From positions 46,032-110,031 of the forward strand of contig JALWZS010000038.1 of the NCBI GenBank assembly GCA_027002475.1: 64,000 bases of DNA. Reading direction: 5' to 3'. Positions 8,989 to 39,126 of this stretch are shown here, piece after piece. The position numbers were made by a program, and so were the translations under genes. This stretch comes from a bacterium. Lineage in GTDB: Bacteria; Patescibacteriota; 4484-211; GCA-002791395. Below the pieces are notes generated by a model. That model did no database searches. It worked only from the letters and a program-made list of their open reading frames with translations, and had not been told where the DNA came from. Position 1 is the first letter of the stretch, and every line of letters begins with the position of its first letter.

Positions 8989-10113
8989 ATGAAAGTACCA
9001 AAGTTAAAACTCTTTAGAAAAAAGGAAGACCACTTTAACATTATTGATTTGGGTACAACTAATGTTAAGGTCGCTGTCGTACGTGAAGCCGATGACTTGC
9101 GGGAACGTGAGGTACGCGGTGAAGCTACTCGCTTGCAGCCTGTTGGAAATATGTACGGTGGTCAGATAATGAATTTAGACGGCGTAATAGAGATTGTAGG
9201 GCAAGCCCTAGATGAAGCAGTTCTTAAGGCGTCGGTTAGTCCGCGTCGTACAGTTCTAGGGCTTAGCGGCGGAATAATGGTGCCGAAGTCTTTTAAGGTT
9301 CGGGTTAAAAGACAGTCGCCTGATGAGCCTTTAGATGATAAGGAGTTTGACGTCTTGGCAAAGCAGATTGAAAACAAAACGATGGATAAGGCTTTAACTG
9401 ATCTTGAAGCTCTTGGCAACGATAAGTACGTGAGGGTGGAAACGATATTTACGGATTACTTTGTAGATGGCGCTCGAGTTAGTTCTCCGCTGGGTCTTCC
9501 CGGTTCTTCGCTAGAAATTACATTACTGCACTACTTTATGGAAGAGACAAAGCTAAGAGGTTTTAATAACTTGGTAGATCAGTTGGATTTGGAAGTTGTT
9601 TCTATGGTTGATACTGCAGTTAATGCAGCAATAAATTGGATGAGCAAATACGGAGACTTTTCATTACTTGACATTGGTGGAGATGCAACTCAGATAATCG
9701 TTGTTTCCAATGGAAAGGTCGCGTTAAGCGAGTGCCTTTTTGTTGGTGGAATCGATGTTACGCAGGCTATCTCTGAAAGAGTAAAGGTTTCATATGAAGA
9801 GGCAGAGTCGTTAAAGTTAAAGTATGCCCAGGCTCAAGTTCCACATGAAAAGCTACAAGATGTGAGGAGTGCAATTACCGATGTTGTAGATATCATAATC
9901 GACGGTGTGGTAGAAGCATTTCGAAATAGTGGAATTGAGGAAATGCCAAACACTATTTTAATAGGCGGTGAGTCGCGGCATTTGCATGAGTTTAAGACTG
10001 CATTGTCCAGTTTCCCGTGGACCAAGGAACAAAACTTTAGCGTCTTTCCTAAAATAGAATTAGTGCCTGGTAAAGATCCTAATTTTGAAGGGTTACTAAA
10101 AATTGAGTTATGA
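8989..10113 (+). CDS. Actin-like ATPase of the FtsA/PilM family
   Basis: 374 aa. N-terminal IIDLGTTNVKVAVV phosphate-1 motif. LDIGGDATQIIVV (DxGGGTT-like) and VGGIDVTQAISERVKVSYEEAESLKLKY resemble FtsA/PilM. Confidence 0.55.
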   Translation: MKVPKLKLFRKKEDHFNIIDLGTTNVKVAVVREADDLREREVRGEATRLQPVGNMYGGQIMNLDGVIEIVGQALDEAVLKASVSPRRTVLGLSGGIMVPKSFKVRVKRQSPDEPLDDKEFDVLAKQIENKTMDKALTDLEALGNDKYVRVETIFTDYFVDGARVSSPLGLPGSSLEITLLHYFMEETKLRGFNNLVDQLDLEVVSMVDTAVNAAINWMSKYGDFSLLDIGGDATQIIVVSNGKVALSECLFVGGIDVTQAISERVKVSYEEAESLKLKYAQAQVPHEKLQDVRSAITDVVDIIIDGVVEAFRNSGIEEMPNTILIGGESRHLHEFKTALSSFPWTKEQNFSVFPKIELVPGKDPNFEGLLKIEL

Positions 10114-11627
10114 AAATTGTATTAAACGAACAAAATAGAATTTATCAATTAGTTAAAGCAATTAGGGAATCGTCAGATTTAGAGCTTGAGATTGTAGTGC
10201 CAAAGGACTCCTTGTTTAGAAGGAATCCTTTAAACGTCATATTCTTAAAAAATCTAGCACAACGATTTGGAAAACATGTGCAGATAACGGAAGATTCGTC
10301 GTCGAGTTCTGGTTCATCTCAGCCTAAGGCTACTGCAGCTGCAACTAAACCGCAAGAAGAAGCAGTCGAGATGATTAATGAGGAAACAACGGGAGGGTCT
10401 GCAGTTGAAAAATCAAGCGGAGAGGCAGAGACACCTATAGCCTCGCCAAAACGTTTTTCCGTTTCTCCTGTAAAGGTGTTAGCTGTTGTGTTCTCAATGT
10501 TGCTACTTATTATCATTGGCGGTGGAGCATTTGTTTACTATTACTTGCCGCAAGCAACAGTAACTCTTTTTGTTTCAGAAAAACTTATTGAAAAGAGTAC
10601 AACGGTAACTGTTGATGAAACTGCACAAAAGGTTGATATAGAAAAAAGAATTGTTCCAGGGAAAGAGGTACGTGTGTCGCTTGCTGGTGCGGATACATTT
10701 AAAGCTACTGGGGAAAAGACAATTGGTGAAAAAGCCACTGGAGTTGTAGAGATACGAAACTTTACGACGGCTGATGTTTTACTTGGTGCAGGGACAGTTC
10801 TTTCTACCCAACTAGAGGACGGTACACCACTTTCTTTTATATTGACTGAAAGTGTAACTTTGCCTCAGGCAACAACAGATGAGGATGTCCGTGTGGCTGG
10901 CAAAAAGACTGCTAGTGTAGAAGCTACCGATATTGGTGCGCAATATAACGTTAGCAGTGGGCACAAGTTCTCTGTTGCAGACTTTGATATAAACGATCTG
11001 TCTGCCGTAAACGATTCCGACTTCACTGGTGGAAGTACTGAGCAGGTAAAGATTGTGTCGGAAGATGACTTGCAGAGTGCAAAGGCAAAGCTGCAGGCAA
11101 AGCTTAAGACAGACCTAATAAATAAGCTAAAGCAGACGATTGGTAAGGACGAATTGTTCGAAGAAAAGTCGGTGTCTTTCTCAACGCTATCCGTTGATTC
11201 TAATCACGAAATTGGAGACGAGGCTGATTCGTTTACCGTAAACATGGAGCTAGAAGCAGTAGCTCTAGTTGTATCAAAAGAGGACATTAGGAGCGTATTA
11301 AAAGGAGAGTTGCTAGCTAATATTCCAGAAGGGTTTACTCTTTCTAAAAAAGATGAGGTAGTTACTATTCAAAACACCGAGGTTAAGGACGATAAGGTGC
11401 AAGTTAAGGCAAAGATTTCGTCACTTGTGGTGCCTGTTCTTGATACAAGTGAATTAAAAGAGCGACTACTCGGTAAAAGCCCTGCCGTAGCTGAGAGTAT
11501 TTTAAAAAGTATTGATAATGTTGAAGGGTATGATGTGCAGTTTTGGCCTGCGCTGCCTGAAGCAATAAGGACTTTCCCTCATATACCAGATAAACTTACT
11601 ATAAAGGTTGAGGTAAAAGCGGACTAG
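10110..11627 (+). CDS. Hypothetical bitopic membrane protein (cytoplasmic N-domain, one TM, ~360-aa exported domain)
   Basis: 505 aa. Start overlaps the upstream stop (ATGA). Single hydrophobic helix VLAVVFSMLLLIIIGGGAFVYYYL at ~aa 120-145. Ser-rich linker. No recognised domain. Confidence 0.5.
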   Translation: MKIVLNEQNRIYQLVKAIRESSDLELEIVVPKDSLFRRNPLNVIFLKNLAQRFGKHVQITEDSSSSSGSSQPKATAAATKPQEEAVEMINEETTGGSAVEKSSGEAETPIASPKRFSVSPVKVLAVVFSMLLLIIIGGGAFVYYYLPQATVTLFVSEKLIEKSTTVTVDETAQKVDIEKRIVPGKEVRVSLAGADTFKATGEKTIGEKATGVVEIRNFTTADVLLGAGTVLSTQLEDGTPLSFILTESVTLPQATTDEDVRVAGKKTASVEATDIGAQYNVSSGHKFSVADFDINDLSAVNDSDFTGGSTEQVKIVSEDDLQSAKAKLQAKLKTDLINKLKQTIGKDELFEEKSVSFSTLSVDSNHEIGDEADSFTVNMELEAVALVVSKEDIRSVLKGELLANIPEGFTLSKKDEVVTIQNTEVKDDKVQVKAKISSLVVPVLDTSELKERLLGKSPAVAESILKSIDNVEGYDVQFWPALPEAIRTFPHIPDKLTIKVEVKAD

Positions 11628-11631
11628 CATC

Positions 11632-12015
11632 GTGAGAATTCTTGCAATTGACCTTGGGTATAAACACACCGGACTGGCTATGTTTGATGAAACTCTTGGA
11701 ATTTCGCCTCTTGCAAATGTTGAACACAAAGACTTATACGAACTGCTTTCTAAGCTAATGCGTTTTATTGAGGATTATGGTTTTGACAAGATTCTTGTAG
11801 GCGATATGGGGGGCGGGGAAAACGAAGAGTACCTTAATAAGTTTGTAGATATTTTGCAAAGCCGCTTAAATTTAAAGTGTGAGATCGTGAGTGAGCGGTA
11901 TTCATCGAAACAAGCAACTAAGGAAATACAAAATACCGGCAATGTGGAGGTAAAAAAAGATCATGCATCTGCAGCGGTACAAATCTTAAGAGACTACGTA
12001 GTCAGGGATTTGTAG
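11632..12015 (+). CDS. ruvX: Putative pre-16S rRNA nuclease / Holliday-junction resolvase-like YqgF (RuvX)
   Basis: 127 aa, GTG start. MRILAIDLGYKHTGLAMFDE matches the RuvX/YqgF N-terminus (RNase H-fold). The position downstream of alaS matches conserved alaS-ruvX synteny. Confidence 0.8.
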   Translation: MRILAIDLGYKHTGLAMFDETLGISPLANVEHKDLYELLSKLMRFIEDYGFDKILVGDMGGGENEEYLNKFVDILQSRLNLKCEIVSERYSSKQATKEIQNTGNVEVKKDHASAAVQILRDYVVRDL

Positions 12016-12058
12016 GGTTGCGTTTTGGTATATGCATGAGATATATTAATAAAAGACT

Positions 12059-15000
12059 ATGAAACTAAAACTGCCTAGTTTGGTTGTTCTTATTTTAATT
12101 GGCTCATTTGCCTTGGGTAGTGTATTTATTGCTCCGCCAACAAGCGCTGATATTTTTGGCGGTGGAAGTAATTCTGGTGGTAGTATTTTTGGGAATATCT
12201 CTGATGGTGTTAGTGGTATCTTTGATGGGATAAGAGAGGCGTTCCCTGGCGGTGCAGTTATTCCTGCTGACTTACCAACGCCAACCCCAACGCCTGTTGG
12301 ATATACTTCGCCTCCTCCACAACCCCCAGCGTCGCTTGGTGATGTTCGTGAATTGAAACTAAGATTAGAATGGGATACGCTAAGCCTTGGTGGTGAGGCT
12401 GTGTACCCACAAGAAAAAGATCCACTGGTTTGTATACATCTCGGTGACGATCTTGCTGTGAGTGAGGGGTTCTCTGAGTGCGCTGGCCGTGGGTATCCTG
12501 GTGCGGTTGCTTGCGATAGGTGCGGGTTCGCCGATATAAATGATTATGCATTTGACGCCCAAAACCGTTTGGTGCGCAAAGACGTCTTAGGTATGAAGGT
12601 GGAAGCTGGTGCGGATAGTCCGCCGCCACCATCATCGCCACCTGACGGGGGACCTACGGTGGTAGCACCTTATGTGTGGGAGGTTTGTGTGCCTAGGCAA
12701 GAATGTAAGGTGGCTGACTTGACGCATGCGATTGTTGGGTGGTGTGGTCAAAATCCAGTTATTCAGAATACAGCAGGATTTAGTGCGAAAATACCAATTA
12801 ACTCTACTGGACCTAATTCATTCACGTTGCCGAATGCAGTGTCGAATAAGTATATTCGTAGGGATGGTTATGCGTTTAGGTGTGTGATTGCAGACTGTGA
12901 AAGCGGTACGTGTTCTCATGATAATTATGTTGAATTTCAGACTATGATTTACCCATCTAACGCAATCTCGATGTACTTAACTGTAGAAAATCCGTCTCAG
13001 ATCCATACAATAAATAATATTTTAATAAAATCAAATACACTAACCTTTGCTAAAGAAGGAGAAACTCCTCTACCTCACAATCTAGATTACTTAGTAGCTC
13101 AAAATGACAACAATCATAATAATCCACCTGTGGCAAATGATTTTTATAAGAATGACTATAAGCCAAGCGCCACTGGAGCACCTACTGAGGGATGGGGTTA
13201 TAAGCATGGTAATAACCTTACAGACTCGACTACAATAAATGTGAGTGGGGTCGATTTTAAAGTTAAAAAGGACACCTCTGATCCAAGTAGAGATGTTTAT
13301 TATTTTGAGTATGGCCCTTTTGACTTAGCCCCTGGACAAACTAAAAAACTACCTTACCAACCAGCTAGTGCCGAGTTTTCTATGATACCTGGGACGGCTG
13401 CAACAGTACCAGGGAGTGGACCGTCATTGGTACCACTTGCCAAACCATGTGAATGTCAGTCAGTTAAACTGCATGACGTATTAGGTACACCTCCAAATGG
13501 CTGTAATCAAGTAATAACTAATCCAACAATTAATCAGTGTCGTTTGTATTATGGAATAGGCGCAAAGCGTAATGAGGGTGGGACCATCGTTAACTATGCA
13601 GATCACTCAGGAGGATACTCTTGTGACTTGCAAGGAATAACAGTTGATGGTTGTCCACCGCCATGGTGCTTTGACGGAGCGGTCAGTCAAGTTGGTCCAA
13701 TGGACGAATGCGAAAAGATTATACAAAGGTATCCAGAGTTAGACCAGCACCCTGGTGGTCCAAATGGAAAAATAGATAACCCACAAGACTTAAATCTTGA
13801 TGGTGATTTCGATGATCCGGGTGAAGACGAATGGTGGTTCTGGAATATGTCGTCGCAGGGACCTGAGTCATTAAGTTCCTTGGGCTCGCTGGCAAAGGCG
13901 ATATTGCCCAGAGAGTTAGTGTCATTCTTTGGTGGTAAGGCCAAAGATGTCCCCGCTGAACTAGCATCTGTCAACGATGTGTCGGCGTTTGGATGTCCAC
14001 AACCGTGTCAAAACCAGCCGCCACCAGGAGTACAAGGTAAAGGTGGTATTATCCCAAGAGACTTTAACTTCATATGTGATCCGGATGACAAATACGATAG
14101 TGGAGATATGGTTGAAGAAAAGCGTTGTAGTGGAGTCGATTTTGATCCAGCTAAGAACAACAAGACAATTATCCCTCCTATAAATACGAACCACCCAGAT
14201 TTGGCGTATGATCAAATGCTTTTTAAAACATACCGTGACGTGACTGCATTAAAGGGATGTGGTTATAACGCTTCGTCGAATAATTCAGTAATTGGTCCTA
14301 TTCAAGTCGTTGCAGAATATGGCGGACGTGGCGATGCGCGCACTGGTAGATCTGTTCTCTTGGCGTCTATACCAATCGGTGGACGTATTTTAGACGACCA
14401 AGCCAGACCATATGGTTGGCCTGTAACCGGGGAGATTGAGCAAGACTGGGGTTACACTGGGCAAGCGGCAAATCAGGGTCCGTACCGTTCGACTCCATCA
14501 AGCGAGTACGGTGAGTACCGTTATTGTTCTCCTACAGATGCTATGCTCTCGCCTGACGAATTGCTTGCTACGAAGGTCTCTTGTCCTGATATTCCTGATT
14601 CGGACATAGATCAGGCAAACAATAATGCAAAGCCTAAAGCTGATTTAGTTGCTGCAATTAGTAATCCTGGCTCGATTATTAGGAACTGGGTTGCGTGTAC
14701 CCCTAATCCAAATGATGACTGTTGGCAGGAAACTATTGATAATGTAGATAAGTGTTATAACGCGGTGGTTAAAGGCGCTATGGATACAGGGAACGACCCT
14801 GCAATGGCGTTAGCTATTTGGTTGGAGGAGTCTGGCGCAAGTAACTATATGCACTTTCCTGACGTTGCGGACTTTGGATGCACAGCGGCAACACATAATA
14901 ATTTCAATGTACAGCTAGAGTGTTTCAACGGCTTGCAGGATAGTTACTATGACTGGATTCACAATCCAGCTAATTCTGCCAGAGATTGTGTAAAAAATGC

Positions 15001-15211
15001 TCCTACTGGAGAATTAAGCATAGATAAATTCCTGCTCTTGTTCCAAGGTGGTTATCGTGCTTGCGATGAGAATAATCAAGCGGGGAATCAGCACTTTAGG
15101 GATAGAATAAAGGATGCTTATAAAATTACCCAGAAAGACGGAAGGTCGCTTGAAATACCTTGTACTCTAAAATCAACTAAATGGGATGATCCGACATGTC
15201 CACAGCCATGA
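12059..15211 (+). CDS. Large secreted Cys-rich, Pro-rich protein of unknown function
   Basis: 1050 aa. Signal peptide MKLKLPSLVVLILIGSFALGSVFIAPPTSA, then a Gly/Ser-rich segment, PTPTPTP and PPPPSSPP tracts, and many Cys. The C-terminal region (LAIWLEESGASNY...) is weakly lysozyme/SLT-like. Confidence 0.7.
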   Translation: MKLKLPSLVVLILIGSFALGSVFIAPPTSADIFGGGSNSGGSIFGNISDGVSGIFDGIREAFPGGAVIPADLPTPTPTPVGYTSPPPQPPASLGDVRELKLRLEWDTLSLGGEAVYPQEKDPLVCIHLGDDLAVSEGFSECAGRGYPGAVACDRCGFADINDYAFDAQNRLVRKDVLGMKVEAGADSPPPPSSPPDGGPTVVAPYVWEVCVPRQECKVADLTHAIVGWCGQNPVIQNTAGFSAKIPINSTGPNSFTLPNAVSNKYIRRDGYAFRCVIADCESGTCSHDNYVEFQTMIYPSNAISMYLTVENPSQIHTINNILIKSNTLTFAKEGETPLPHNLDYLVAQNDNNHNNPPVANDFYKNDYKPSATGAPTEGWGYKHGNNLTDSTTINVSGVDFKVKKDTSDPSRDVYYFEYGPFDLAPGQTKKLPYQPASAEFSMIPGTAATVPGSGPSLVPLAKPCECQSVKLHDVLGTPPNGCNQVITNPTINQCRLYYGIGAKRNEGGTIVNYADHSGGYSCDLQGITVDGCPPPWCFDGAVSQVGPMDECEKIIQRYPELDQHPGGPNGKIDNPQDLNLDGDFDDPGEDEWWFWNMSSQGPESLSSLGSLAKAILPRELVSFFGGKAKDVPAELASVNDVSAFGCPQPCQNQPPPGVQGKGGIIPRDFNFICDPDDKYDSGDMVEEKRCSGVDFDPAKNNKTIIPPINTNHPDLAYDQMLFKTYRDVTALKGCGYNASSNNSVIGPIQVVAEYGGRGDARTGRSVLLASIPIGGRILDDQARPYGWPVTGEIEQDWGYTGQAANQGPYRSTPSSEYGEYRYCSPTDAMLSPDELLATKVSCPDIPDSDIDQANNNAKPKADLVAAISNPGSIIRNWVACTPNPNDDCWQETIDNVDKCYNAVVKGAMDTGNDPAMALAIWLEESGASNYMHFPDVADFGCTAATHNNFNVQLECFNGLQDSYYDWIHNPANSARDCVKNAPTGELSIDKFLLLFQGGYRACDENNQAGNQHFRDRIKDAYKITQKDGRSLEIPCTLKSTKWDDPTCPQP

Positions 15212-17361
15212 TGAATAGAAAAAGAATACTAGCAATAATAGGAGGAATCGGAATAGCGTTATTTGTATTCTTCGGTACTCGATTTGTCGCGTATAAAACA
15301 GATAATAGTCTATTCCAAAACGAGGTGCGAGCGAGCGGGTCGGTTCAGTGGGGGATAAACATAGATCCAGCAAATCCAGACGGACATCCTTCTGCTGCAA
15401 GTCTTGGTAATGCAGGTTGGGTGAGGGTTGAGTTTAAGGACTGCAGTGATACAGATCCTGTCGGTGCGACTACTATCAGTCAATACACGAATGTTTTGTC
15501 TGAGTATCATAACGCAGGGATGAAGGTACTACTAATACTTGATTATCTAAGCTATCCAAATGCAGCAGATAATATAGATAAATTTGCGAAAAGGGTGGAG
15601 CATGTTGCAGAGAAACTTGGACATGATCTTAATTATATTGACGCGTATGAAATATGGAATGAAGAAGATCTTGCATCAATATACCCTCTTGATACTGCAA
15701 CTTATGCCAGTGTACTATCAGCACTATCTAGTGCAATAAGAGCTAAAGACCCAGGTAAACCCATTGTAATGGGAGGGTTGGCGTCGGGGCAGCCAAGTTA
15801 TGTAAGTTCTGTCAAGAACGCATTAGGAGGTAACCTTGATGCAGTTGATGCAATAGGAGTTCACCCTTACACAAAAGACGTTGACGGATATCCTGGGGGA
15901 GGGACAGGCGACATTATCGAGCTCATAGATCAATATAGGGCTGTGGCAGATAATAAGCCTATTTGGATTACTGAGATGGGGCTTGATACTACCGATGAGG
16001 CGCAGCAAGCGAATTATATTTTAAAATTAGATCAAGAGTTAAATAAACCAAGCAATGCGGGACATGTACCTGTTGTTACTTGGTTCGCCTGGAGTGATGG
16101 AATGGTATCTCCTTTTGGTATTGTAAAGGATTATTCGATAGCTAAGGCATCATATAATTCTTATTTTAATGTGCTTGGCGTATCGATACCAACGGTACGA
16201 GCACAATCGAGTGTCTCTGATATCTCTCCAGAAGGTGGAACTAGTTGTGGTGGGGCGCCAGAAAATCCGGGTCTAACTGCAAAAGAGGGATACATTCATC
16301 CAGGAATTGACATTAGACCGCAAAGGGGTGTTGCTAGCTCAAGCTATGTATACAGTACGCATGCGGGTTTTGTAACTTATGCTGGTCCTGCTCCTGTCAG
16401 TATTAAAGAACGCGGTTGGATGGTGCAAATTGAATCAGACTTAAATAGAGATAATGTGCCTGATGTAATCACTCGTTATACCCACATGATGCCAAATAGT
16501 TTAAGAATAAATGATGTTTGGTACAGGCGTTTTGCTTTTACTCCTGAGTATTTTGTTAGCTTGATTAATGGTATGGACGGAATAGAAAAGTTGCCGTTTG
16601 GGTATGGACCATATGTGGCTAGGAACCAGCTTTTGGGTATGGTTGGGGATAGTGGCAGTCCAGGGCATGTTCATATTCAGTACGAGATTTTGACGAATAG
16701 ATTTAGGTCGCTATATGGATTGGGGCTAGATACTGATGTGCCATATGCATGTTCAGACTCGCCATATGTTGAAGCTTGTTCGCCAGATGCTGGTAGACCA
16801 GGATTTTTCTTCCCACAGAATAGCAGAAAGCCTGCTAGGGTTCGTGGGCCTGTGTACTCAAATGCAGGGTTTGTAACTCCTCCACCAGCATTAACTCCAA
16901 TTGTGATTACTCCAACGCCAGCACCAGCGACTCCTACGCCTGATCCAAACCTACCAACACCGACTCCTGGTCCTACAGCAACTCCAGGTCCAACTCCTCC
17001 TGTAGGACCTGGTTGTGCTGACTTTGATTGCTTCACTATGTGTGCCAGCGTTGATGCTAGCAATACACTTTACGTTGAACTTTTCTGGAATTTCCACGAT
17101 CCCTCAACGAATCCTGGCGCATGTTATTGTGGTGACTTAAGCGATCATGAAATTAGGATCAATGGGGTTTCTTTTGGGCGACCGGCGGAGCTTAATGTGA
17201 TATCAGCTGCCCTGCCTCATAGGGTTTGGACTAACGGTGGGCACTCTGTGGGAGATCAGGTCTGCCGCTATAAAGGGAATTATGTTGCAGTGCCTGGATG
17301 GGACGATGCATGTAGACAACAGAACGATTGGGCTCAGTGTGTTAATGCGGTAGCTAGATAA
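15196..17361 (+). CDS. Membrane-anchored multidomain protein: clan GH-A glycoside hydrolase + M23 peptidase + PT linker + Cys-rich C-terminal module
   Basis: 721 aa. N-terminal TM helix. (beta/alpha)8 glycosidase signatures YEIWNEEDL (acid/base) and IWITEMGLD (nucleophile). M23 motifs HPGIDI (HxxxD) and GHVHIQYE (HxH). PT-rich linker TPTPAPATPTPDPNLPTPTPGPTATPGPTPP. C-terminal module with 10 Cys. Confidence 0.65.
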   Translation: MSTAMMNRKRILAIIGGIGIALFVFFGTRFVAYKTDNSLFQNEVRASGSVQWGINIDPANPDGHPSAASLGNAGWVRVEFKDCSDTDPVGATTISQYTNVLSEYHNAGMKVLLILDYLSYPNAADNIDKFAKRVEHVAEKLGHDLNYIDAYEIWNEEDLASIYPLDTATYASVLSALSSAIRAKDPGKPIVMGGLASGQPSYVSSVKNALGGNLDAVDAIGVHPYTKDVDGYPGGGTGDIIELIDQYRAVADNKPIWITEMGLDTTDEAQQANYILKLDQELNKPSNAGHVPVVTWFAWSDGMVSPFGIVKDYSIAKASYNSYFNVLGVSIPTVRAQSSVSDISPEGGTSCGGAPENPGLTAKEGYIHPGIDIRPQRGVASSSYVYSTHAGFVTYAGPAPVSIKERGWMVQIESDLNRDNVPDVITRYTHMMPNSLRINDVWYRRFAFTPEYFVSLINGMDGIEKLPFGYGPYVARNQLLGMVGDSGSPGHVHIQYEILTNRFRSLYGLGLDTDVPYACSDSPYVEACSPDAGRPGFFFPQNSRKPARVRGPVYSNAGFVTPPPALTPIVITPTPAPATPTPDPNLPTPTPGPTATPGPTPPVGPGCADFDCFTMCASVDASNTLYVELFWNFHDPSTNPGACYCGDLSDHEIRINGVSFGRPAELNVISAALPHRVWTNGGHSVGDQVCRYKGNYVAVPGWDDACRQQNDWAQCVNAVAR

Positions 17362-17366
17362 ATATT

Positions 17367-18356
17367 ATGTTGGATAAAATACGACAATTTACAATTTTAA
17401 CGAAAGCAATGAGTGCGTTCGTCAAGCTAGTTGCAATGGTTATAGTCGTTATCCTTTTGGTGTGGCAGTTGACTGGTCATAAGACAAATGTTGTTGAACA
17501 GAATGCCATAACTAGCTCAACATTTAGCATGGTTGATGCATTAAATACCGTACCTGTTGATGTTAACCTAGAAAAAGATGTCGACAAGTTTGAGGTTTAT
17601 AAAATGCCAATGTTTGCGTTGTCGTTACCTGATGCTAATTTATTTTCAGATGTAACCGCACAATTTGTTGCGCACGCGTTAGGGTTTACTCCAAAGGCTC
17701 AAGTTATGAACTCGGGAGATTTTGCGGGTTATAAGGAAGACGTCAAAACTTTAACTTTTGACAGAAAGTTAGGACAAGTCAACTACTCAACTATTTTAAG
17801 CATTGTTAATAAGGCTATTCCTAAGAGTGAGGCGTCACATAAGGATGTACAAAGTGCAGTTAAAAAGTTTTTTGAGAACTCGAAACTTCCTACTACGTTT
17901 TTTGACTTAGAGAATCTTGAGTATCAATCCATGGTGATGGATTCGGTTGGGGTTTTGTCCCCGGCGGTGTTGACTTCAGGGCGATTAACGAAGGTCGTGA
18001 TTCCTTATCAAGTTTCTGGGGTGCGCATACTACTACCAATTGAGAGTTATATGGTGGTAGATGGTAATGGCACTATTCGACTGATGACATTGTTTTTCCC
18101 GAACATTACTTTAACTGACAAAATGTACACGTTAATGAGTTGGTCTTCGGCAAAAAAGATTGCGCAGTCTGGTGGCGCCGCTGTTATTAGTTATGCTGCT
18201 AATTCTACCAAGGATTTTAGTATTGAGAAATCTTACGCAGCGTATTACATTAATCAAAGAGAATTTTACTCGATCGACAAAAGAAGGATTTTAAAACCAA
18301 TATATGTTTTTGAAGGAGATGGTGGTGTATTAGCAGTACCGGCAGAAAAATTATAA
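17367..18356 (+). CDS. Hypothetical membrane-anchored protein
   Basis: 329 aa, one N-terminal TM (FVKLVAMVIVVILLVWQL). No recognised domain. Starts 6 nt after the upstream stop. Confidence 0.5.
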   Translation: MLDKIRQFTILTKAMSAFVKLVAMVIVVILLVWQLTGHKTNVVEQNAITSSTFSMVDALNTVPVDVNLEKDVDKFEVYKMPMFALSLPDANLFSDVTAQFVAHALGFTPKAQVMNSGDFAGYKEDVKTLTFDRKLGQVNYSTILSIVNKAIPKSEASHKDVQSAVKKFFENSKLPTTFFDLENLEYQSMVMDSVGVLSPAVLTSGRLTKVVIPYQVSGVRILLPIESYMVVDGNGTIRLMTLFFPNITLTDKMYTLMSWSSAKKIAQSGGAAVISYAANSTKDFSIEKSYAAYYINQREFYSIDKRRILKPIYVFEGDGGVLAVPAEKL

Positions 18357-18358
18357 AG

Positions 18359-20659
18359 ATGATTATAAATAAACTTTATACGAAGTTAATTGCATTAACG
18401 GCAGTGGTTTCAGTTGTTGCCGTAGTGCTGTTTGTGCTTGTCGTTCAAGAGGAAAAGCCAACTGCAGTTACCAGTACCGAACCAGTAAGCGCGGCAACCT
18501 GTGATCATTGGTTGGAAAGCGAACCGTTTTATACTAATACCACTAGATCCCATCCTTTGCCATCATTTGCTGCAGGAAACTACTACTACGTTATGTTGAA
18601 GACTCCTGCATCCCACGCAAAATATGCAGAGATATTAAGCGATGGGAGTTTAGGTGAGTGGAAGGTTGCGACTAAGGGAGAGAGCGATAATTCAGGGAGG
18701 GGATATAATGCTGTTTCGTTTGATGGAACTGGTTATTTGTTGCGCTATGGACGTGTCTTGAAGCAGATCACTAGCGCAGATGGAGACATTGTTAACGAGG
18801 CAGATGTTGGGAATGGACCTAATAACGTTGGTGGACATGGTTACTATTGGTTGGGTTCCGTTCTTGCTGATTTTGGGGCAACTCGTTGGGTATATATCTT
18901 TGGTGGCTTTGACTTAGATCCTCATGTTTATGTATTTGACGGCACTTATCGTTCCAACAACTTGGCTAGCGCAAGTACTTGGTCTTGGACCCATATAGGC
19001 AAGAAGTTTCCAGGGGCTTACCCATACAAGGGGGCTTTTTATAAAGCTTCTGACGCATATGGGTTTATTTATGTGGCGGATCGCGACGGAACATTGTATA
19101 AGATACGTGTTGACTCTAATGGTAATTTAGGAACGTGGTCCTCTGCTGGTGTAAACTTTCCATCCGCCGATCGTGGGGATTATTTTGTTGCCAACAACAA
19201 GCTATGGGTGATTAGAGGGTCAAAGGTTTACTATGGAGATATTGATTCTTCCAGCGGGAACATATCCGCTTTTGATGATTCGCCACCTGATTTGCCAGGA
19301 CCTCAAATAGAGATGGATTGGGGGGACGGGCATAATGAAGGTAATTCGTGGGCAATAGTAAATGATGTGATTTATGTCACGGGTCCAGATAGGGTTTACT
19401 ATCTTCCATTAAGTGGCGGTTGTACGCGTGGTGGCGGTGGCGGTGGTTGGACGCCTGGTGTTGGTGGGGCTATAACTTGTAACGTTAAAGAATGGATTGC
19501 AAACGGCCCAAACGTTTTGACCGATCCAATAATATGTCCACGTCCTGAAGCGAGTAAGATAAATCCAGATTATTGTGCCGAAAACCCAACAGATGAAGTC
19601 TGCTTAAATCCTCCACCTCCATCAAGTCGGTGTGTGGACGGTGAAAAGTGTAAATTTAATTTCCAGCCCGATAAGATAGCTCAAATCCCGATGGATAAAG
19701 ATTATGGACAACATGATGGAACTGGGATAATGGCTGGCAAGCGTCAATATCGATATTATGACTACGACAATGATGTATTTATAGATGTCCCACCATATTG
19801 GTTCGGTAGCGGAGGAGGAAGTTTAATTGAAGCTAGTCTGACAAGTACTTCCCCAGCGCCTTATGATGGTTTGTCTGATCCAAGTATAACGGATGAAGCT
19901 CCGTGTGGTTGGCCAACTAATACATCTCATAGAAATGTTTATGCTGGATGTGGCTTCCCTTATACGGCTCACGATCGCGACACTTCAGGTGTAAATGGGA
20001 TTTGTCCAGAAGATATGAACCCACAAGCTCCAATTAGTTCTTGCGCTACAGAGGCATCTAACTATCATAACACTAATAATGGAACAGATATAACAGGTTA
20101 TGCAACTATTTATGCTACGCAAAAGGGGACCGCTTATAGGTGTGTGGATACATTGGATACTGACTACGGTGCCCATGGCTATGGAGTATTTACTGTAGTT
20201 CGAGGGGAGTATTTCACTACCTTAAGTGTACATTTTAGGCCAGTCCCTGCAGTTGATAGTGTTCCAGAATTAACCGATCCAAATGGGAGTCATTTATGTT
20301 GGGGGACAAAGCTTGTAAAAAAATGGGATGTTCAAAGGGGTGATGCCTTGGGAGAGGTTGGGCTTACTGGTTATACGAACGGTCCACACGTACATTATGT
20401 TATATTCCGAAACACCTTGCCCGATTCTAGTAATCCTTCTAAAAAGCTTCCTGATTGGAACCAACCAATCTGCGCCGCTTCGTTTATGGACTTGAACAAT
20501 GATTATTGTCAAGGGTTACCTCCTCAAACAATGAGTGCAAACCCATTTAGTAGCGTAGGCGCTTTTGTTAATAGTATCAATCCGTTTAGTTCTAATACAC
20601 AAGAGAGTACGCCTACACAAGAGAGTGCGCCAGATAGTAATTCTGATTATCGGGGCTAG
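18359..20659 (+). CDS. Membrane-anchored protein with Kelch-like beta-propeller repeats, poly-Gly/Cys-rich segment and C-terminal M23-like peptidase domain
   Basis: 766 aa. N-terminal TM. Repeated blade-like units (YVFDG, IYVADRDGTLYKI, LWVIRGSKVYYGDI). GGGGGGW tract. C-terminal GYTNGPHVHYVIF has the M23 HxH motif. Confidence 0.6.
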   Translation: MIINKLYTKLIALTAVVSVVAVVLFVLVVQEEKPTAVTSTEPVSAATCDHWLESEPFYTNTTRSHPLPSFAAGNYYYVMLKTPASHAKYAEILSDGSLGEWKVATKGESDNSGRGYNAVSFDGTGYLLRYGRVLKQITSADGDIVNEADVGNGPNNVGGHGYYWLGSVLADFGATRWVYIFGGFDLDPHVYVFDGTYRSNNLASASTWSWTHIGKKFPGAYPYKGAFYKASDAYGFIYVADRDGTLYKIRVDSNGNLGTWSSAGVNFPSADRGDYFVANNKLWVIRGSKVYYGDIDSSSGNISAFDDSPPDLPGPQIEMDWGDGHNEGNSWAIVNDVIYVTGPDRVYYLPLSGGCTRGGGGGGWTPGVGGAITCNVKEWIANGPNVLTDPIICPRPEASKINPDYCAENPTDEVCLNPPPPSSRCVDGEKCKFNFQPDKIAQIPMDKDYGQHDGTGIMAGKRQYRYYDYDNDVFIDVPPYWFGSGGGSLIEASLTSTSPAPYDGLSDPSITDEAPCGWPTNTSHRNVYAGCGFPYTAHDRDTSGVNGICPEDMNPQAPISSCATEASNYHNTNNGTDITGYATIYATQKGTAYRCVDTLDTDYGAHGYGVFTVVRGEYFTTLSVHFRPVPAVDSVPELTDPNGSHLCWGTKLVKKWDVQRGDALGEVGLTGYTNGPHVHYVIFRNTLPDSSNPSKKLPDWNQPICAASFMDLNNDYCQGLPPQTMSANPFSSVGAFVNSINPFSSNTQESTPTQESAPDSNSDYRG

Positions 20660-20662
20660 AAA

Positions 20663-21703
20663 ATGACTAAAAAAAAGAAGCAACTAATAATAGGTGGTGT
20701 TGTTGGGTTTATGTTAATTCTTGCATTGGCATATTCTTTGCCACGTTTAACTCACACAGTTACAAGTCCAGAGCCAACTGCAGCGCCACCAGCGGAAATA
20801 ACCCCAAAGGAGCTGCGTAGCGTAAAAGCTATTGAAGCGTCTGATGATTTAAGTGATATGGTCTTTAATGAAGCAAAGGGACTGTATTATATTTCAAGTT
20901 TCGACGAAGGCAAGATTTATGCTATTGGGCTTGAGAGTCAGACCGTAGATGGGGAGATTCCTGTTGTTGCACCAAATAGAATGTTACTAAACCCTGCAAT
21001 AAATAAAATGTATGTTACTTCAGCCGATACGGTAAAAGAGGTTGGTTTAAATAACTTTACGGTTGAGAGAAGTGTTAAAACAGGAGTTCATCCATTAGAG
21101 CTATTGGTTGCAGATAGTGGAAAACGCTTATTTGTTGTGAACGAATTCTCTGATAATGTGGCAGTTATTGATACAGATTCATTCTCGCTTATCGCAACCA
21201 TTCCCGTCGGTAAGAGGCCAGTTGATATTGCAAAGGATAGAAACGGTGAATTCGTTTACGTTGTCAATAAAGAGGATGCATCGGTCTCTAAGATATCGGT
21301 TAGTAATTTAAGTGTGGTATCAACAATTGAAAATGTTGGGCGACCGGTTGTAATTGAAGCATACCCCGGTAAAGACTTGATGCTAATCTTAGATCAATAC
21401 GGCGATAATGTAATTGTACTTGATACAAATACGGACAAAATCGTTAAAACAATTAAAACTGTAGATTATCCTGCTGCTATTGCATTCGATCTTGGTAACA
21501 ATCGCTTTTTTGTTTCAAGTTTTACAAAAAGCTCTATTGGCATAATTGACATTGAAAAAGAAGCAATGGTATCTGAACTGCAACTTGGAACTGCATTCCA
21601 ACCAATCTCTGGGCTTAACAATATGATTTACAACGCACAAAGCAAGTCACTTATTGTTACAAACACAAATACCGGCAAGGTCTTTTTCGTGCCGGTTGAC
21701 TAA
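20663..21703 (+). CDS. YVTN-family beta-propeller repeat protein, membrane-anchored
   Basis: 346 aa. N-terminal TM. Repeated ~40-aa units (KMYVTSADTVKEVGL, RLFVVNEFSDNVAVIDTDS, FVYVVNKEDASVSKIS, RFFVSSFTKSSIGIIDI) typical of YVTN/NHL-type propellers. Confidence 0.6.
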   Translation: MTKKKKQLIIGGVVGFMLILALAYSLPRLTHTVTSPEPTAAPPAEITPKELRSVKAIEASDDLSDMVFNEAKGLYYISSFDEGKIYAIGLESQTVDGEIPVVAPNRMLLNPAINKMYVTSADTVKEVGLNNFTVERSVKTGVHPLELLVADSGKRLFVVNEFSDNVAVIDTDSFSLIATIPVGKRPVDIAKDRNGEFVYVVNKEDASVSKISVSNLSVVSTIENVGRPVVIEAYPGKDLMLILDQYGDNVIVLDTNTDKIVKTIKTVDYPAAIAFDLGNNRFFVSSFTKSSIGIIDIEKEAMVSELQLGTAFQPISGLNNMIYNAQSKSLIVTNTNTGKVFFVPVD

Positions 21704-21754
21704 TGCCTGTTTAAGCCTTGACACTGCTATATTCTGTATCTATACTGAAGACGT

Positions 21755-22285
21755 ATGTTCTCTAAAATCTTACTGCGCCTTTTAAAAGAAGCTTTGTTCC
21801 CGGCAGTGCTAGTGCTGCTTACTAAGGTTGCAGCCATCATGATTTTTGTGCATGCATTTTCTTTAGCTTGGAGCTTGGAGGTTAAGACATTTATTCCTGA
21901 TTTTACATTCGAAAACCAAGACGTTTCTGTTTTTGTTAATTCGTACTCTAACCTGTTTGTATTTTTAGTTGTTGTGTTTGGGTTTGCTTGGGTATTAGCT
22001 AGAGCGTATTACTTTCACGATACACATATAAAGCCGTCTTTAATTCTAAGGCTTTTGTCATGGAATTTAACCGGACTTTTAACAAGTAGTCACGAAATTT
22101 ATCACAAAGGAGTTGTTTGGATTTCTTATCTATGGCTAATAACACTCCTTATTGGAGTGCATACATTGCTTGGCATTAATTATGTTTGGGTTTTTGTGTT
22201 TGCGTTGGCTTCAAGCGTACTTGCAACTTGGTACTTTATTGCTGACGTAGAAAGGGAACTAGTTCATCATGAAAGCACTATCTAA
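21755..22285 (+). CDS. Hypothetical polytopic membrane protein (~4 TM)
   Basis: 176 aa with four hydrophobic segments. The 3' end overlaps the next gene. Confidence 0.45.
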   Translation: MFSKILLRLLKEALFPAVLVLLTKVAAIMIFVHAFSLAWSLEVKTFIPDFTFENQDVSVFVNSYSNLFVFLVVVFGFAWVLARAYYFHDTHIKPSLILRLLSWNLTGLLTSSHEIYHKGVVWISYLWLITLLIGVHTLLGINYVWVFVFALASSVLATWYFIADVERELVHHESTI

Positions 22286-23036
22286 TCTCGCACTAACACT
22301 AATTTTATTTGGTCTATTTATGGTACCTGTGATTGCTATTCATAGGATGGTTTCTTTTGAGACTGTACCAAATAAAGGTGTTGTTGCTGGAGCTAGAACT
22401 ATCGACTCAAGTGATTTAAATATAATTCCAAATACGTCCGATTTTGATAAGTATGCAAGTTTTGCACCACATTCATTTGAGAATGGAGTTTATAAAGACA
22501 ACGTTACGGTAACATCTTTTCAACGACAGCAAGCAACGTACCGTGGACTTTATACACTTTACAATGTTTCAAAAGATCCAATAAAGCTAACAATTGTAGG
22601 CGATATTGCAGTACCTACCGATGCGACGTTTGATAGGATTGTTTTAGGGTTTGGCAATAACACTTTTGGTGAAAAGCTGTCTGCAGATCTTAAAAAGGGT
22701 ACGTCATTAATCCCAATGGATGTGCCTCTAGAAGGGGTTAATGTGGGGGATAAGATTTTAATTGGAGATGAATTAGTAAGTGTACTTCGAATTACCCCAA
22801 CTCATTTAGTAACAATGCCACTACAAAACACACATAAAGCAGGTGAAAAGATGTATCCTCAATCTGTAGTTCTAACACCAGGTGAAATTGTTTTCCCTGA
22901 ATCAGGGGTATATGTTCTAGAGGCAGGTGAAAAGGTTTTGGTCAACCTTGAAGTAAAAGGCTCTGCAAGGTTGTTGCAGCAAGATCAAAAAGTAACGGTT
23001 CCGCTCGAAATTAGAGCACAAAGATTAGACTCTTAA
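22269..23036 (+). CDS. Hypothetical secreted protein
   Basis: 255 aa, N-terminal signal/TM (LALTLILFGLFMVPVIAI). Last gene of the plus-strand operon. Confidence 0.45.
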   Translation: MKALSNLALTLILFGLFMVPVIAIHRMVSFETVPNKGVVAGARTIDSSDLNIIPNTSDFDKYASFAPHSFENGVYKDNVTVTSFQRQQATYRGLYTLYNVSKDPIKLTIVGDIAVPTDATFDRIVLGFGNNTFGEKLSADLKKGTSLIPMDVPLEGVNVGDKILIGDELVSVLRITPTHLVTMPLQNTHKAGEKMYPQSVVLTPGEIVFPESGVYVLEAGEKVLVNLEVKGSARLLQQDQKVTVPLEIRAQRLDS

Positions 23037-23055
23037 ACGGTTTTAGCCTCTTTGC

Positions 23056-38318: not shown

Positions 38319-39119
38319 CTACTCTAGGTATTTGTCGATGACTGCTTTAATGACAGCATACGGTTGTGCACCTACAACCATTTCTCCTTCAAACTCACCA
38401 GAATCTGTATTCTTACCGATGAAGAATGTAGGAGTGCCTGTAGCTCCATATTTTTGCGCGTCGGCAAGGTCGTTTTGGACCTCGTCTTTGTACTTCTCTG
38501 AGTCCAAACACTGCTTAAACTTATTTGCGTCAAGACCTAGGTCTTTTGCGATTGTGTACAACTCCGACTTTGGCATTCCATTTCCATTTGAGTTGGTTTT
38601 GTTAAATATCTCGTCATGATACTTAAAATATGTTTCGTCATCGCCTTGCTCGCGGGCACAGTTGGCAGCTATGGCTTCCTGTGTGGCTAGTGGATCATGA
38701 AACGAAAGAGGTAAGTCGCGATATACGTATCTTAATCTTCCTGTATCTATATAGTCGCTTTTGATTTGTGCAAAAGATTGCGTAAAGTACCGCTTACAGA
38801 AAGGACATTCGTAATCACTAAAATCCACCATTACTACTGGTGCATTTGTGTCACCAATGGCTGGGTCGTCGTCAACTGAGACAAGAACGTTTGTTGGCTG
38901 TTCTTGTTGTGGTGCTTGAGCATTGTTCCCTTGAGGTGCTTGATTGTTTGATGGTGTGGTTGTAGTGTTATTGGAATTAGCTCCATTAAGTCCGAAAAAT
39001 AATGCAACGGAGATAAGTACACCCGTTATAATTATTGCAATTGGTACGCCAAGAGCGTTATTCGGTGATGTTGCAGTGGTTTGTTGTGTGTTTGTTGTGT
39101 CTTCATTCATAGCCTTCAC
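38319..39119 (-). CDS. DsbA-like thiol:disulfide oxidoreductase, membrane-anchored with low-complexity linker
   Basis: 266 aa. N-terminal TM, Asn/Thr/Gln-rich linker (NNTTTTPSNNQAPQGNNAQAPQQEQ), thioredoxin fold with CPFC active site. Confidence 0.7.
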   Translation of the reverse strand: MKAMNEDTTNTQQTTATSPNNALGVPIAIIITGVLISVALFFGLNGANSNNTTTTPSNNQAPQGNNAQAPQQEQPTNVLVSVDDDPAIGDTNAPVVMVDFSDYECPFCKRYFTQSFAQIKSDYIDTGRLRYVYRDLPLSFHDPLATQEAIAANCAREQGDDETYFKYHDEIFNKTNSNGNGMPKSELYTIAKDLGLDANKFKQCLDSEKYKDEVQNDLADAQKYGATGTPTFFIGKNTDSGEFEGEMVVGAQPYAVIKAVIDKYLE

Positions 39120-39126
39120 CCCCTTT

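What the first reader, a model, noticed from the sequence alone, without database searches (positions are those of the whole stretch)
15196..17361. Single polypeptide combining a glycoside hydrolase (clan GH-A) and an M23 endopeptidase, plus PT linker and Cys-rich terminal module
The glycosidase catalytic pair (NEE acid/base at YEIWNEEDL, nucleophile at WITEMG) and the M23 zinc ligands (HxxxD at HPGIDI, HxH at GHVHIQ) are both intact in one 721-aa membrane-anchored protein. An enzyme able to cut both the glycan and the peptide of a cell wall is unusual. Typical autolysins pair an amidase or a glucosaminidase with binding modules. The 10-Cys C-terminal module has no obvious relatives and may be a targeting domain.
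Basis: seen in the sequence. Interest (0 to 1): 0.6.

Follow-up and report, generated by a model that had tools for sequence, protein, structure and literature searches.

The report
PslG-like glycanase fused to M23 peptidase
A candidate-phylum (WWE3) bacterium encodes an exported protein that joins a polysaccharide-cutting enzyme of the PslG type to a cell-wall peptide-cutting M23 enzyme and a rare cysteine-rich tail; it is a new combination of known parts, not a new kind of system.

Summary
The ORF, its motifs, the PT linker and the Cys-rich tail are all real. The N-domain is a confident clan GH-A (β/α)8 barrel with acid/base E156 and nucleophile E260. Its closest solved relative is PslG (GH39), an exopolysaccharide hydrolase, and no recognised peptidoglycan glycosidase family matched. 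The second domain is a divergent, lineage-restricted M23 peptidase with a 35-residue insertion. The query keeps all five canonical residues (H368, D372, H430, H491, H493), but only 4 of 32 clade members keep H491. The tail (8 Cys, not 10) is unrelated to the 1050-aa neighbour. It recurs at the C-terminus of subtilases and other hydrolases in related genomes, as a portable targeting module would.

The gene is the M23-bearing member of an 11-gene block conserved in WWE3 genomes: FtsA-like, 505-aa, RuvX, 1050-aa, this gene, 329-aa, 766-aa, β-propeller, two small proteins, SpoIID. Glycanase and tail are accessories that come and go. The same GH clade is fused elsewhere to Amidase_2, SH3, canonical M23, SLT_3 and C39-like modules. 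That ties it to cell walls without identifying its substrate.

Verdict: a new variant of modular cell-wall hydrolases.

The parts
15196..17361 (+). Whole ORF, 721 aa. An alternative start at 15208 overlaps the upstream stop codon (ATGA) and gives 717 aa.
15223..15285 (+). N-terminal hydrophobic segment, residues ~10-30, preceded by NRKR. Signal anchor or signal peptide. Orthologs P0002 and P0004 have what look like cleavable signal peptides.
15334..16200 (+). Clan GH-A (β/α)8 glycoside hydrolase domain, residues 47-335, PslG/GH39-like. R77, N155, E156, H223, Y225, E260 and W296 are conserved in 66-67 of 67 homologs.
15661..15663 (+). E156, predicted acid/base (WNE motif). Aligns with PslG E165.
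15973..15975 (+). E260, predicted nucleophile (ITE motif). Aligns with PslG E276.
16273..16875 (+). Divergent M23 (LytM-type) metallopeptidase domain, residues 360-560, including a C-terminal extension with conserved C519 and C528.
16297..16311 (+). HxxxD motif (H368 to D372), predicted zinc ligands.
16483..16485 (+). H430 (RYTHMM), the mid-domain catalytic His. Invariant in 32 of 32 clade members.
16495..16599 (+). Clade-specific insertion, residues ~434-468, splitting the M23 core. It is the reason Pfam matches only half of the profile.
16666..16674 (+). HxH motif (H491-V-H493). H493 is conserved in 24 of 32 clade members and H491 in only 4 of 32.
16876..17010 (+). Pro/Thr-rich linker, residues 561-605.
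17011..17358 (+). Cys-rich C-terminal module, residues 606-721, with 8 Cys. Motifs: C..DCF[TS][MF]C, C..CGD[LI]SD, VCR.KGNY, DDAC, QNDW..C.
12059..15211 (+). Upstream operon partner, a 1050-aa secreted Cys-rich protein with 34 Cys. It overlaps the start of the query gene. P0012 fuses a protein of this type with the GH domain.
17367..23036 (+). Downstream operon partners: a 329-aa anchored protein, a 766-aa protein with a divergent M23-like C-terminus, a 346-aa YVTN β-propeller, and 176-aa and 255-aa proteins. The set is syntenic in four WWE3 genomes.
23056..24870 (-). SpoIID-domain protein that closes the conserved block.
8989..12015 (+). Upstream members of the conserved block: FtsA/PilM-like (374 aa), an unknown 505-aa protein, and RuvX.

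Best explanation
The gene encodes an exported cell-envelope hydrolase with two catalytic domains, from a WWE3-lineage (Patescibacteria/CPR) bacterium.

Shown: residues 47-335 form a clan GH-A (β/α)8 barrel closest to PslG/GH39, with E156 as acid/base and E260 as nucleophile. Residues 360-560 form a divergent M23 domain that carries H368/D372/H493 at the zinc-ligand positions and H430/H491 at the catalytic positions. A Pro/Thr linker leads to an 8-Cys C-terminal module.

Inferred mechanism: the N-terminal hydrophobic segment exports or anchors the protein. The GH domain acts as a retaining β-glycanase on a wall-associated or matrix polysaccharide, not on peptidoglycan glycan strands. That clears access to the sacculus, where the M23 domain cleaves peptide cross-links. 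The disulfide-bonded tail on its extended stalk docks the enzyme to an envelope ligand.

Inferred role: the gene is the M23-bearing member of an 11-gene block conserved in WWE3 genomes, which includes an FtsA-like protein and SpoIID. I therefore take the primary role to be remodelling of the producer's own envelope during growth and daughter-cell separation. In this sub-lineage the glycanase and the tail are accessories added to a conserved M23 core.

Enzyme-level reading (two competent hydrolase domains acting on the envelope): about 0.75. Own-envelope role: about 0.45.
For: GH domain: Pfam GH5 above its cut-off. A profile matches PslG at E 2.7e-31 over the full barrel, then 5jvk and chains named beta-xylosidase (GH39 by my own knowledge). 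The AF2 model has pLDDT 94.9. Foldseek ranks PslG 2-4 with TM 0.70 among clan GH-A barrels. E156 and E260 align with PslG E165 and E276, whose Gln variant is inactive. The catalytic set is conserved in 66-67 of 67 homologs.

M23 domain: 14 of 15 clade members hit PF01551. hhalign against canonical M23 gives E 5.8e-5 over 98 columns once the insertion is removed. The query carries all five canonical residues.

Wall association of the GH clade: among 66 homologs, 15 carry SH3_3, 11 Amidase_2, 7 M23, 3 C39-like, 2 SLT_3 and 1 GW. GH+M23 occurs in two well-separated GH clades.

Operon: synteny holds in L001, L010 and L012, and mostly in L011. M23 is the constant domain, while GH and the tail are variable. 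M23 is the best conserved region against the ortholog P0002 (68%, against 49% for GH).

Own envelope: the block lies among housekeeping genes. VanY and SpoIID show that peptidoglycan is present, and DsbA/DsbD-like genes fit disulfide-rich surface modules. There is no phage signal.
Against: No substrate is known for any member of this GH clade, and nothing excludes peptidoglycan or a host polymer. The M23 fold could not be modelled (pLDDT 41). The query's Pfam M23 score is below the cut-off. Most clade members lack the first His of HxH, and the distant tier also loses H493. The clade may therefore use a non-canonical mechanism or include inactive members. The register of HxH is ambiguous in hhalign. 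Cultivated CPR bacteria are episymbionts (abstract of PMC11623550), and secreted peptidoglycan hydrolases have been proposed as host-directed in the predatory CPR bacterium Vampirococcus. The variable accessory domains and the cleavable signal peptides in orthologs fit host-directed enzymes equally well. Proximity to the FtsA-like and SpoIID genes is circumstantial.
Confidence: 0.5

Rival explanations
1. Host-directed enzyme. The protein is displayed or released by an episymbiotic WWE3 cell to breach a host's capsule or matrix with the glycanase and its sacculus with the M23 domain. The Cys-rich tail would recognise the host surface. The purpose would be attachment, feeding or killing.
For: Cultivated CPR bacteria are obligate episymbionts (abstract of PMC11623550), and secreted peptidoglycan hydrolases are proposed to degrade the host wall in the predatory CPR bacterium Vampirococcus. 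PslG-type enzymes disrupt foreign biofilm matrix when added from outside. In the same operon, glycanase, M23, S8 subtilase and the tail are shuffled between genomes, as expected for a diversifying interface. Orthologs have cleavable signal peptides. The M23 clade is also fused to a β-helix and to a GH39-like domain.
Against: The block keeps the same position among housekeeping genes in all the WWE3 genomes examined, next to FtsA-like and SpoIID genes. The query has an uncleaved-looking membrane anchor. The related GH clades occur in proteins whose only named sources are Anaerolineae/Anaerolineales MAGs, fused to Amidase_2 or SH3 in ordinary chromosomal contexts. That points to a general wall function.
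Confidence: 0.3
2. The GH domain is a previously unrecognised clan GH-A peptidoglycan glycosidase, so the protein cuts both the glycan strand and the peptide stem of the same sacculus.
For: The GH clade is repeatedly fused to peptidoglycan amidase, endopeptidase and lysozyme-like domains and to SH3 or GW wall-binding domains. Peptidoglycan glycan bonds are β-1,4, a linkage type that clan GH-A enzymes hydrolyse (own knowledge).
Against: No clan GH-A family appears in the peptidoglycan glycosidase catalogue of PMC6403190. All the sequence and structure neighbours act on non-peptidoglycan glycans such as Psl, xylosides, mannans and glucans. Fusion to a lytic domain is equally expected for an enzyme that removes a wall-bound secondary polymer.
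Confidence: 0.12
3. One domain is not an enzyme. The M23 domain would be a LytM-type regulator or binding module (as in EnvC/NlpD), or the GH barrel would serve only as a carbohydrate-binding scaffold.
For: Position 491 is His in only 4 of 32 clade members, and H493 is lost in 8 of 32. The query's Pfam M23 score is below the cut-off. The M23 fold could not be modelled.
Against: The query itself keeps H368, D372, H430, H491 and H493. H368, D372 and H430 are conserved in 29-32 of 32 members. The GH catalytic residues are conserved in 66-67 of 67 homologs, which argues for selection on catalysis.
Confidence: 0.1
4. Nutritional glycanase. The 'Cellulase' domain would digest environmental plant or algal polysaccharide for fermentation, and the link to M23 would be incidental.
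For: The best Pfam hit is GH5 'Cellulase'.
Against: About half of the clade's members carry peptidoglycan-cleaving or wall-binding modules, and none carries a cellulose- or xylan-type CBM apart from isolated cases. The profile similarity is to PslG and not to cellulases. The operon partners are envelope proteins, with no sugar transporters or catabolic genes.
Confidence: 0.06

Closest known systems
PslG of Pseudomonas aeruginosa (GH39; PDB 4zn2, 5bx9)
   Same: Clan GH-A (β/α)8 barrel. Acid/base and nucleophile Glu align (E156/E260 with E165/E276). It is the best sequence-profile match (E 2.7e-31) and a top structural match. PslG also has an N-terminal transmembrane segment.
   Different: About 18% identity. 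The query lacks the C-terminal β-sandwich domain (own knowledge of the PslG structure; the query goes from the barrel into M23 within ~25 residues). It is not in a polysaccharide-synthesis operon. It is fused to a peptidase. Its substrate is unknown.
M23 endopeptidases LytM and lysostaphin (Staphylococcus)
   Different: The query has a 35-residue insertion between the mid-domain His and HxH, and a ~55-residue Cys-containing C-terminal extension. Its Pfam score is below the cut-off. The first His of HxH is not conserved in its clade.
phi29 gp13 tail protein and Bacillus subtilis SPβ CwlP (lysozyme- or muramidase-type domain plus M23)
   Same: One polypeptide joins a glycosidase to an M23 peptidase. 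Both proteins are mentioned as M23-bearing in PMC3314691. Their lysozyme/SLT halves are from my own knowledge.
   Different: Their glycosidase halves are lysozyme-like folds specific for peptidoglycan. Here the glycosidase is a clan GH-A barrel of the PslG type. Those proteins are phage or prophage proteins, whereas this is a chromosomal operon gene with no phage signal.
Catalogued modular cell-wall hydrolases such as Atl (amidase plus GH73) and M23 with GHF-73/24/25 (review PMC6403190)
   Same: Modular logic: two catalytic modules plus linker and binding modules.
   Different: GH5 and GH39-type domains are not part of that catalogue. The C-terminal module is not LysM, SH3, SLH or CWB, and it has only about three credible relatives among 1.84 billion representative proteins.
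GH + SH3 + canonical M23 proteins P0054, P0055, P0059 and P0070 (uncharacterised)
   Same: Same GH clade at 35-37% identity and the same pairing with M23.
   Different: Their M23 domain is canonical (54.5 bits over the full profile). They have SH3 domains in place of the PT linker and Cys tail. Their GH domains fall in a separate branch of the tree, so the fusion is probably independent.

Membership tests
Clan GH-A glycoside hydrolases | (β/α)8 barrel fold | tested here: met
   AF2 model of residues 41-340 has pLDDT 94.9 and pTM 0.93, with alternating strand/helix elements. 549 Foldseek PDB hits at E <= 1e-3; the 50 listed are glycosidase barrels of GH1, GH5, GH10, GH39, GH128 and similar families.
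Clan GH-A glycoside hydrolases | Acid/base Glu in an Asn-Glu motif after β4, and nucleophile Glu after β7 | tested here: met
   N155-E156 and E260. Both Glu are conserved in 67 of 67 homologs and N155 in 66 of 67. They align with PslG E165 and E276.
Clan GH-A glycoside hydrolases | Other conserved clan residues: Arg on β2, His/Tyr on β6, Trp on β8 | tested here: met
   R77, H223, Y225 and W296 are conserved in 66-67 of 67 homologs. The assignment to specific strands comes from the model's secondary structure and is inferred.
GH39 (PslG-like) | Significant sequence similarity to GH39 members | tested here: inconclusive
   A profile of 67 homologs matches PslG at E 2.7e-31, 5jvk at 1e-21, and chains named beta-xylosidase at 1e-5 to 4e-3. 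However, the query scores 15.4 bits on Pfam GH39 against a cut-off of 26, while it passes Pfam GH5 at 29.1 against 23.5. No CAZy/dbCAN assignment was available.
GH39 (PslG-like) | C-terminal β-sandwich domain packed against the barrel | tested here: not met
   The barrel ends at about residue 335 and the M23 domain begins at about residue 360. There is no room for such a domain. That PslG has one is from my own knowledge.
GH39 (PslG-like) | Encoded within an exopolysaccharide biosynthesis cluster (the PslG-type role) | tested here: not met
   The neighbours are envelope proteins and housekeeping genes, with no glycosyltransferase or polymerase in the block. A separate distant GH-A paralog at 47880-49757 does sit next to a GT2.
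GH39 (PslG-like) | Hydrolysis of a defined glycan | not testable with these tools
   Needs enzyme assays.
Peptidase M23 (LytM-type) | HxxxD zinc-binding motif | tested here: met
   H368-PGI-D372. H is present in 31 of 32 clade members and D in 29 of 32.
Peptidase M23 (LytM-type) | HxH motif (catalytic His plus third zinc ligand) and the mid-domain His | tested here: met
   The query has H491-V-H493 and H430. Caveats: only 4 of 32 clade members keep H491 and 24 of 32 keep H493. hhalign offers an alternative register that places H493 on the first His.
Peptidase M23 (LytM-type) | Match to the family profile above the curated threshold | tested here: inconclusive
   The query scores 22.6-24.8 bits against a cut-off of 28.7, and only on profile positions 2-56. 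14 of 15 clade members match at E <= 0.01, best 5.3e-8. Profile-profile comparison gives E 5.8e-5 over 98 columns after the insertion is removed. No PDB M23 entry was reached by hmmsearch.
Peptidase M23 (LytM-type) | M23 β-sheet fold with a zinc site; zinc-dependent endopeptidase activity | tested here: inconclusive
   The AF2 model of residues 341-721 failed (pLDDT 41), and a fold search on it gave nothing significant. Activity is not testable here.
Known glycosidase + M23 peptidoglycan hydrolases (phi29 gp13, CwlP, and GHF-73/24/25 + M23) | The glycosidase half belongs to a peptidoglycan-specific family (lysozyme-like, SLT or GH73) | tested here: not met
   The glycosidase half is a clan GH-A barrel. 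The catalogue is in PMC6403190.

The most novel reading that the evidence does not exclude
The PslG-like clade defined here is a new family of cell-wall glycan hydrolases. It would be the first clan GH-A enzymes that cleave peptidoglycan strands or a conserved wall-linked glycopolymer shared by Chloroflexota and Patescibacteria. The conserved 11-gene WWE3 block, with its shuffled glycanase, M23, subtilase and Cys-tail modules, would be the lineage's dedicated division or host-interface envelope machine.
Probability: 0.12. Interest if true: 0.75.

Novelty: new variant of a known kind. Interest (0 to 1): 0.45.

Why it matters
Almost nothing is known about how ultra-small CPR bacteria build, divide and remodel their envelope, or how they open a host's. 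This protein and its conserved operon give a concrete set of enzymes to test. More generally, an uncharacterised PslG-like glycanase clade is repeatedly joined to amidase, endopeptidase, lysozyme-like and SH3 modules. That points to a wall-associated polysaccharide substrate that current catalogues of cell-wall hydrolases do not cover. A natural fusion of a matrix or capsule glycanase with a peptidoglycan endopeptidase is also the design that engineered antibacterial enzymes aim for.

Tried and rejected
1. Shared tail with the 1050-aa neighbour: BLASTP E > 1, and an HMM of the module finds only one copy in the window. Rejected.

2. Phage endolysin origin. This was suggested by GH+Amidase_2 homologs that lack signal peptides. 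The contexts of P0034, P0055 and P0045 are ordinary chromosomal, there are no PHROG hits, and there is one weak viral locus. Rejected.

3. PslG-style role inside an exopolysaccharide synthesis operon: no such genes lie in the block. Rejected for this gene.

4. SLT/lysozyme-like C-terminus in the 1050-aa neighbour (AIWLEESGASNY): no Pfam, PDB or phmmer support. Not supported.

5. Structure of the M23 and tail half: the AF2 model has pLDDT 41. Foldseek on it gave only non-significant β-sandwich hits such as CARDB, Fn3 and CBM56, at E >= 0.08. Uninformative.

6. PDB profile search with the M23-half alignment: no M23 entry was reached.

7. A single-sequence search with the M23 domain added only fragments. 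The alignment search was needed.

8. Literature searches for a described GH5/GH39-M23 fusion or for WWE3 wall hydrolases found nothing specific.


Full report
**Observation.** The ORF at 15196..17361 (+) is real and encodes 721 aa.
- A second ATG at 15208 overlaps the stop codon of the upstream gene (ATGA) and is the start used in the identical database entry P0001 (717 aa). The difference is trivial.
- There is one hydrophobic segment at residues ~10-30 after an NRKR stretch. The linker at residues 560-606 has 19 Pro and 11 Thr in 47 residues.
- The module after the linker has 8 cysteines, not 10. The other two, C519 and C528, belong to the C-terminal extension of the M23 domain.

**Glycosidase domain (residues 47-335).**
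- Pfam's GH5 'Cellulase' model passes its cut-off (29.1 against 23.5 bits). The GH128-type and GH39 models give weaker hits.
- The single sequence already finds PslG among solved structures. WNE and TE(M/W)G are aligned.
- A profile of 67 homologs matches PslG over the whole barrel at E 2.7e-31. Next come 5jvk (1e-21) and chains named beta-xylosidase; I know these as GH39 enzymes.
- PslG is a GH39 enzyme with an N-terminal transmembrane segment, and its E165Q/E276Q variant is inactive (PMC4928890). The chain numbering (139 and 250, each +26) maps these residues onto query E156 and E260.
- The AF2 model is of high confidence (pLDDT 94.9, pTM 0.93). Foldseek returns clan GH-A barrels with PslG at ranks 2-4 (TM 0.70). 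No family stands out structurally.
- R77, N155, E156, H223, Y225, E260 and W296 are conserved in 66-67 of 67 homologs.
- The N-domain is therefore a competent-looking retaining β-glycosidase of clan GH-A, nearest to PslG/GH39. It lacks room for PslG's extra β-sandwich domain.

**M23 domain (residues 360-560).**
- Pfam matches only profile positions 2-56, below the cut-off (22.6-24.8 against 28.7 bits).
- The cause is a clade-specific insertion at residues ~434-468, between the mid-domain His and the HxH region.
- hhalign against canonical M23 domains matches the second half alone at P 1.7e-4. With the insertion deleted it matches the whole core over 98 columns at E 5.8e-5.
- 14 of 15 clade members hit PF01551 individually, best E 5.3e-8.
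- In an enlarged set of 32 clade members, H368 is kept in 31 of 32, D372 in 29 of 32 and H430 in 32 of 32. H493 is kept in 24 of 32 and is lost in the distant tier. H491 is kept in only 4 of 32: the query, P0002, P0008 and P0099.
- hhalign also offers an alternative register for HxH.
- The AF2 model of this half failed (pLDDT 41), so structure cannot settle the register.
- The query is thus among the most canonical members of an unusual, lineage-restricted M23 clade.

**Tail (residues 606-721).**
- It has no similarity to the 1050-aa neighbour.
- An exhaustive phmmer scan of 1.84 billion representatives found three credible relatives. P0002 and locus L009 add two more.
- The cysteine framework is conserved.
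- The module is always C-terminal and sits on different enzymes:
  - GH+M23 proteins (query, P0002; L009, cut by the contig edge, shows M23 plus tail)
  - an S8 subtilase (P0088)
  - a 1273-aa protein (P0087)
  - an S8+GH protein in L011
- That distribution fits a portable docking module.
- DsbA-like and DsbD-like genes in the window fit an extracytoplasmic, disulfide-bonded domain.

**Context.**
- The named relatives are candidate division WWE3 MAGs, plus one MAG labelled Saccharibacteria.
- The gene overlaps or abuts its neighbours.
- The conserved block is: FtsA-like, 505-aa protein, RuvX, 1050-aa protein, this gene, 329-aa protein, 766-aa protein, β-propeller, 176-aa protein, 255-aa protein, SpoIID (minus strand). 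The order is kept in L001, L010 and L012, although L010 ends before SpoIID. L011 keeps most of it but is rearranged.
- At this position the M23-clade domain is constant. The GH domain is present in the window, L001 and L010 and absent in L011 and L012.
- In L011 a GH domain and the tail sit instead on the S8-bearing protein of the same block.
- P0012 fuses a protein like the 1050-aa neighbour with the GH domain.
- M23 is the best conserved region between the query and P0002 (68% identity, against 49% for GH).
- The block lies among translation and ribosomal genes.
- VanY and SpoIID show that the organism has peptidoglycan.

**What the GH clade is associated with.**
- Among 66 homologs, 15 carry SH3_3, 11 Amidase_2, 7 M23, 4 SH3_4, 3 C39-like, 2 SLT_3 and 1 GW.
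- A neighbour-joining tree of the GH domains, without support values, puts the WWE3-type GH+M23 proteins far from the GH+SH3+canonical-M23 proteins. The pairing has therefore probably arisen twice.
- The WWE3 M23 clade is also fused to a β-helix (P0008) and to a different GH39-like domain (P0099).
- Sampled contexts are chromosomal and not phage.
- These results tie the clade to cell envelopes but do not name its substrate.

**Mechanism and role.**
- I take the protein to be an exported envelope hydrolase with two catalytic domains.
- The PslG-like barrel would remove or thin a wall-associated or matrix β-glycan.
- The M23 domain would cleave peptidoglycan cross-links.
- The tail on its Pro/Thr stalk would dock the enzyme.
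- Shown: the domains, their catalytic residues, the operon and the fusion patterns.
- Inferred: both substrates, the order of action and the role of the tail.
- The conserved housekeeping position next to FtsA-like and SpoIID genes leads me to favour remodelling of the producer's own envelope.
- A host-directed role is a serious rival. The CPR lifestyle, the shuffled accessory domains and the cleavable signal peptides in orthologs all favour it.
It has no positive support: the review PMC6403190 catalogues only GHF-3/73/22/24/25 and SLT-type domains as peptidoglycan glycosidases.

**Comparison and novelty.**
- Glycosidase-plus-M23 polypeptides are already known. M23 co-occurs with GHF-73/24/25. 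The phi29 gp13 tail protein and CwlP are mentioned as M23-bearing proteins.
- The new points are the class of glycosidase, the insertion-bearing M23 clade and the rare tail.
- Literature searches found no description of such a fusion.
- I rate it a new variant of a known kind, of moderate interest. The interest lies mainly in the uncharacterised wall-associated GH clade and the conserved WWE3 envelope operon.

Noticed in passing
window 47880-49757 (-) and 46989-47825 (-): A 625-aa ORF with no Pfam or PDB hit is a distant clan GH-A paralog of the GH domain (hhalign probability 91%, E 1e-6; SIWNEPNF, VSVHPY, IREIS). It lies directly next to a GT2 glycosyltransferase. This resembles the PslG arrangement of a hydrolase beside a polysaccharide synthase, and it suggests that the organism makes its own surface glycan.
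   Followed up: partly
window 18359-20659 (+): The 766-aa operon neighbour ends in a divergent M23-like region (GLTGYTNGPHVHYVIF; Pfam positions 62-91 of 96, E 1.3e-4). Its orthologs in L001 and L011 carry an N-terminal S8 subtilase, and the L010 ortholog is of similar length (1209 aa).
   Followed up: partly
window 8989-24870: An 11-gene block is conserved in order in WWE3 genomes L001, L010 and L012, and mostly in L011: FtsA/PilM-like, 505 aa, RuvX, 1050 aa, GH+M23, 329 aa, 766 aa, YVTN β-propeller, 176 aa, 255 aa, SpoIID. Most members have no recognisable family.
   Followed up: partly
window 12059-15211 (+); protein P0012: The 1050-aa secreted neighbour (34 Cys, no Pfam or PDB match) is found fused around the GH domain in P0012. 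P0012 residues 1-362 and 750-897 match the neighbour, and its GH domain is at 436-718. This is a Rosetta-stone link between the two adjacent genes.
   Followed up: partly
L011 11833-15639 (+): In a WWE3 relative, one 1268-aa protein combines an S8 subtilase, a GH domain of the same clade and the Cys-rich tail. The M23-clade domain sits in a separate 1166-aa protein two genes upstream. Modules are shuffled within the operon.
   Followed up: yes
window 38319-39903 (-): A DsbA-like thioredoxin and a DsbD/CcdA-type membrane protein lie side by side. This indicates extracytoplasmic disulfide-bond machinery in a small CPR genome and fits its many Cys-rich surface proteins.
   Followed up: no
proteins P0104-P0114 (distant tier of the M23 clade): These relatives at 35-46% identity keep HxxxD and the mid-domain His. 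They replace the HxH region with sequences such as GVTQLHYE, GEHQLDYE and GVRKVRYD. This could reflect a shifted zinc ligand or inactive members.
   Followed up: partly
proteins P0025, P0034 and others; loci L003-L006: Many GH+Amidase_2 and GH+SH3 homologs start directly at the GH domain (MARRIHCGINIDP...) with no signal peptide, yet they lie in ordinary chromosomal contexts. The only named relatives of these clades are Anaerolineae/Anaerolineales MAGs. How they would reach the wall is unexplained.
   Followed up: partly
window 15442-15444 and 16246-16248 (C83 and C351): Two further cysteines are conserved among the close GH+M23 orthologs: one in the GH domain (KDCSDTDP) and one just before the M23 domain (GGTSCGG). 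They could form an interdomain disulfide. This is speculative.
   Followed up: no
window 42173-44489: A VanY-type D-Ala-D-Ala carboxypeptidase (42173-42919, +) and a three-domain multicopper oxidase (42921-44489, -) lie next to each other in this small genome.
   Followed up: no
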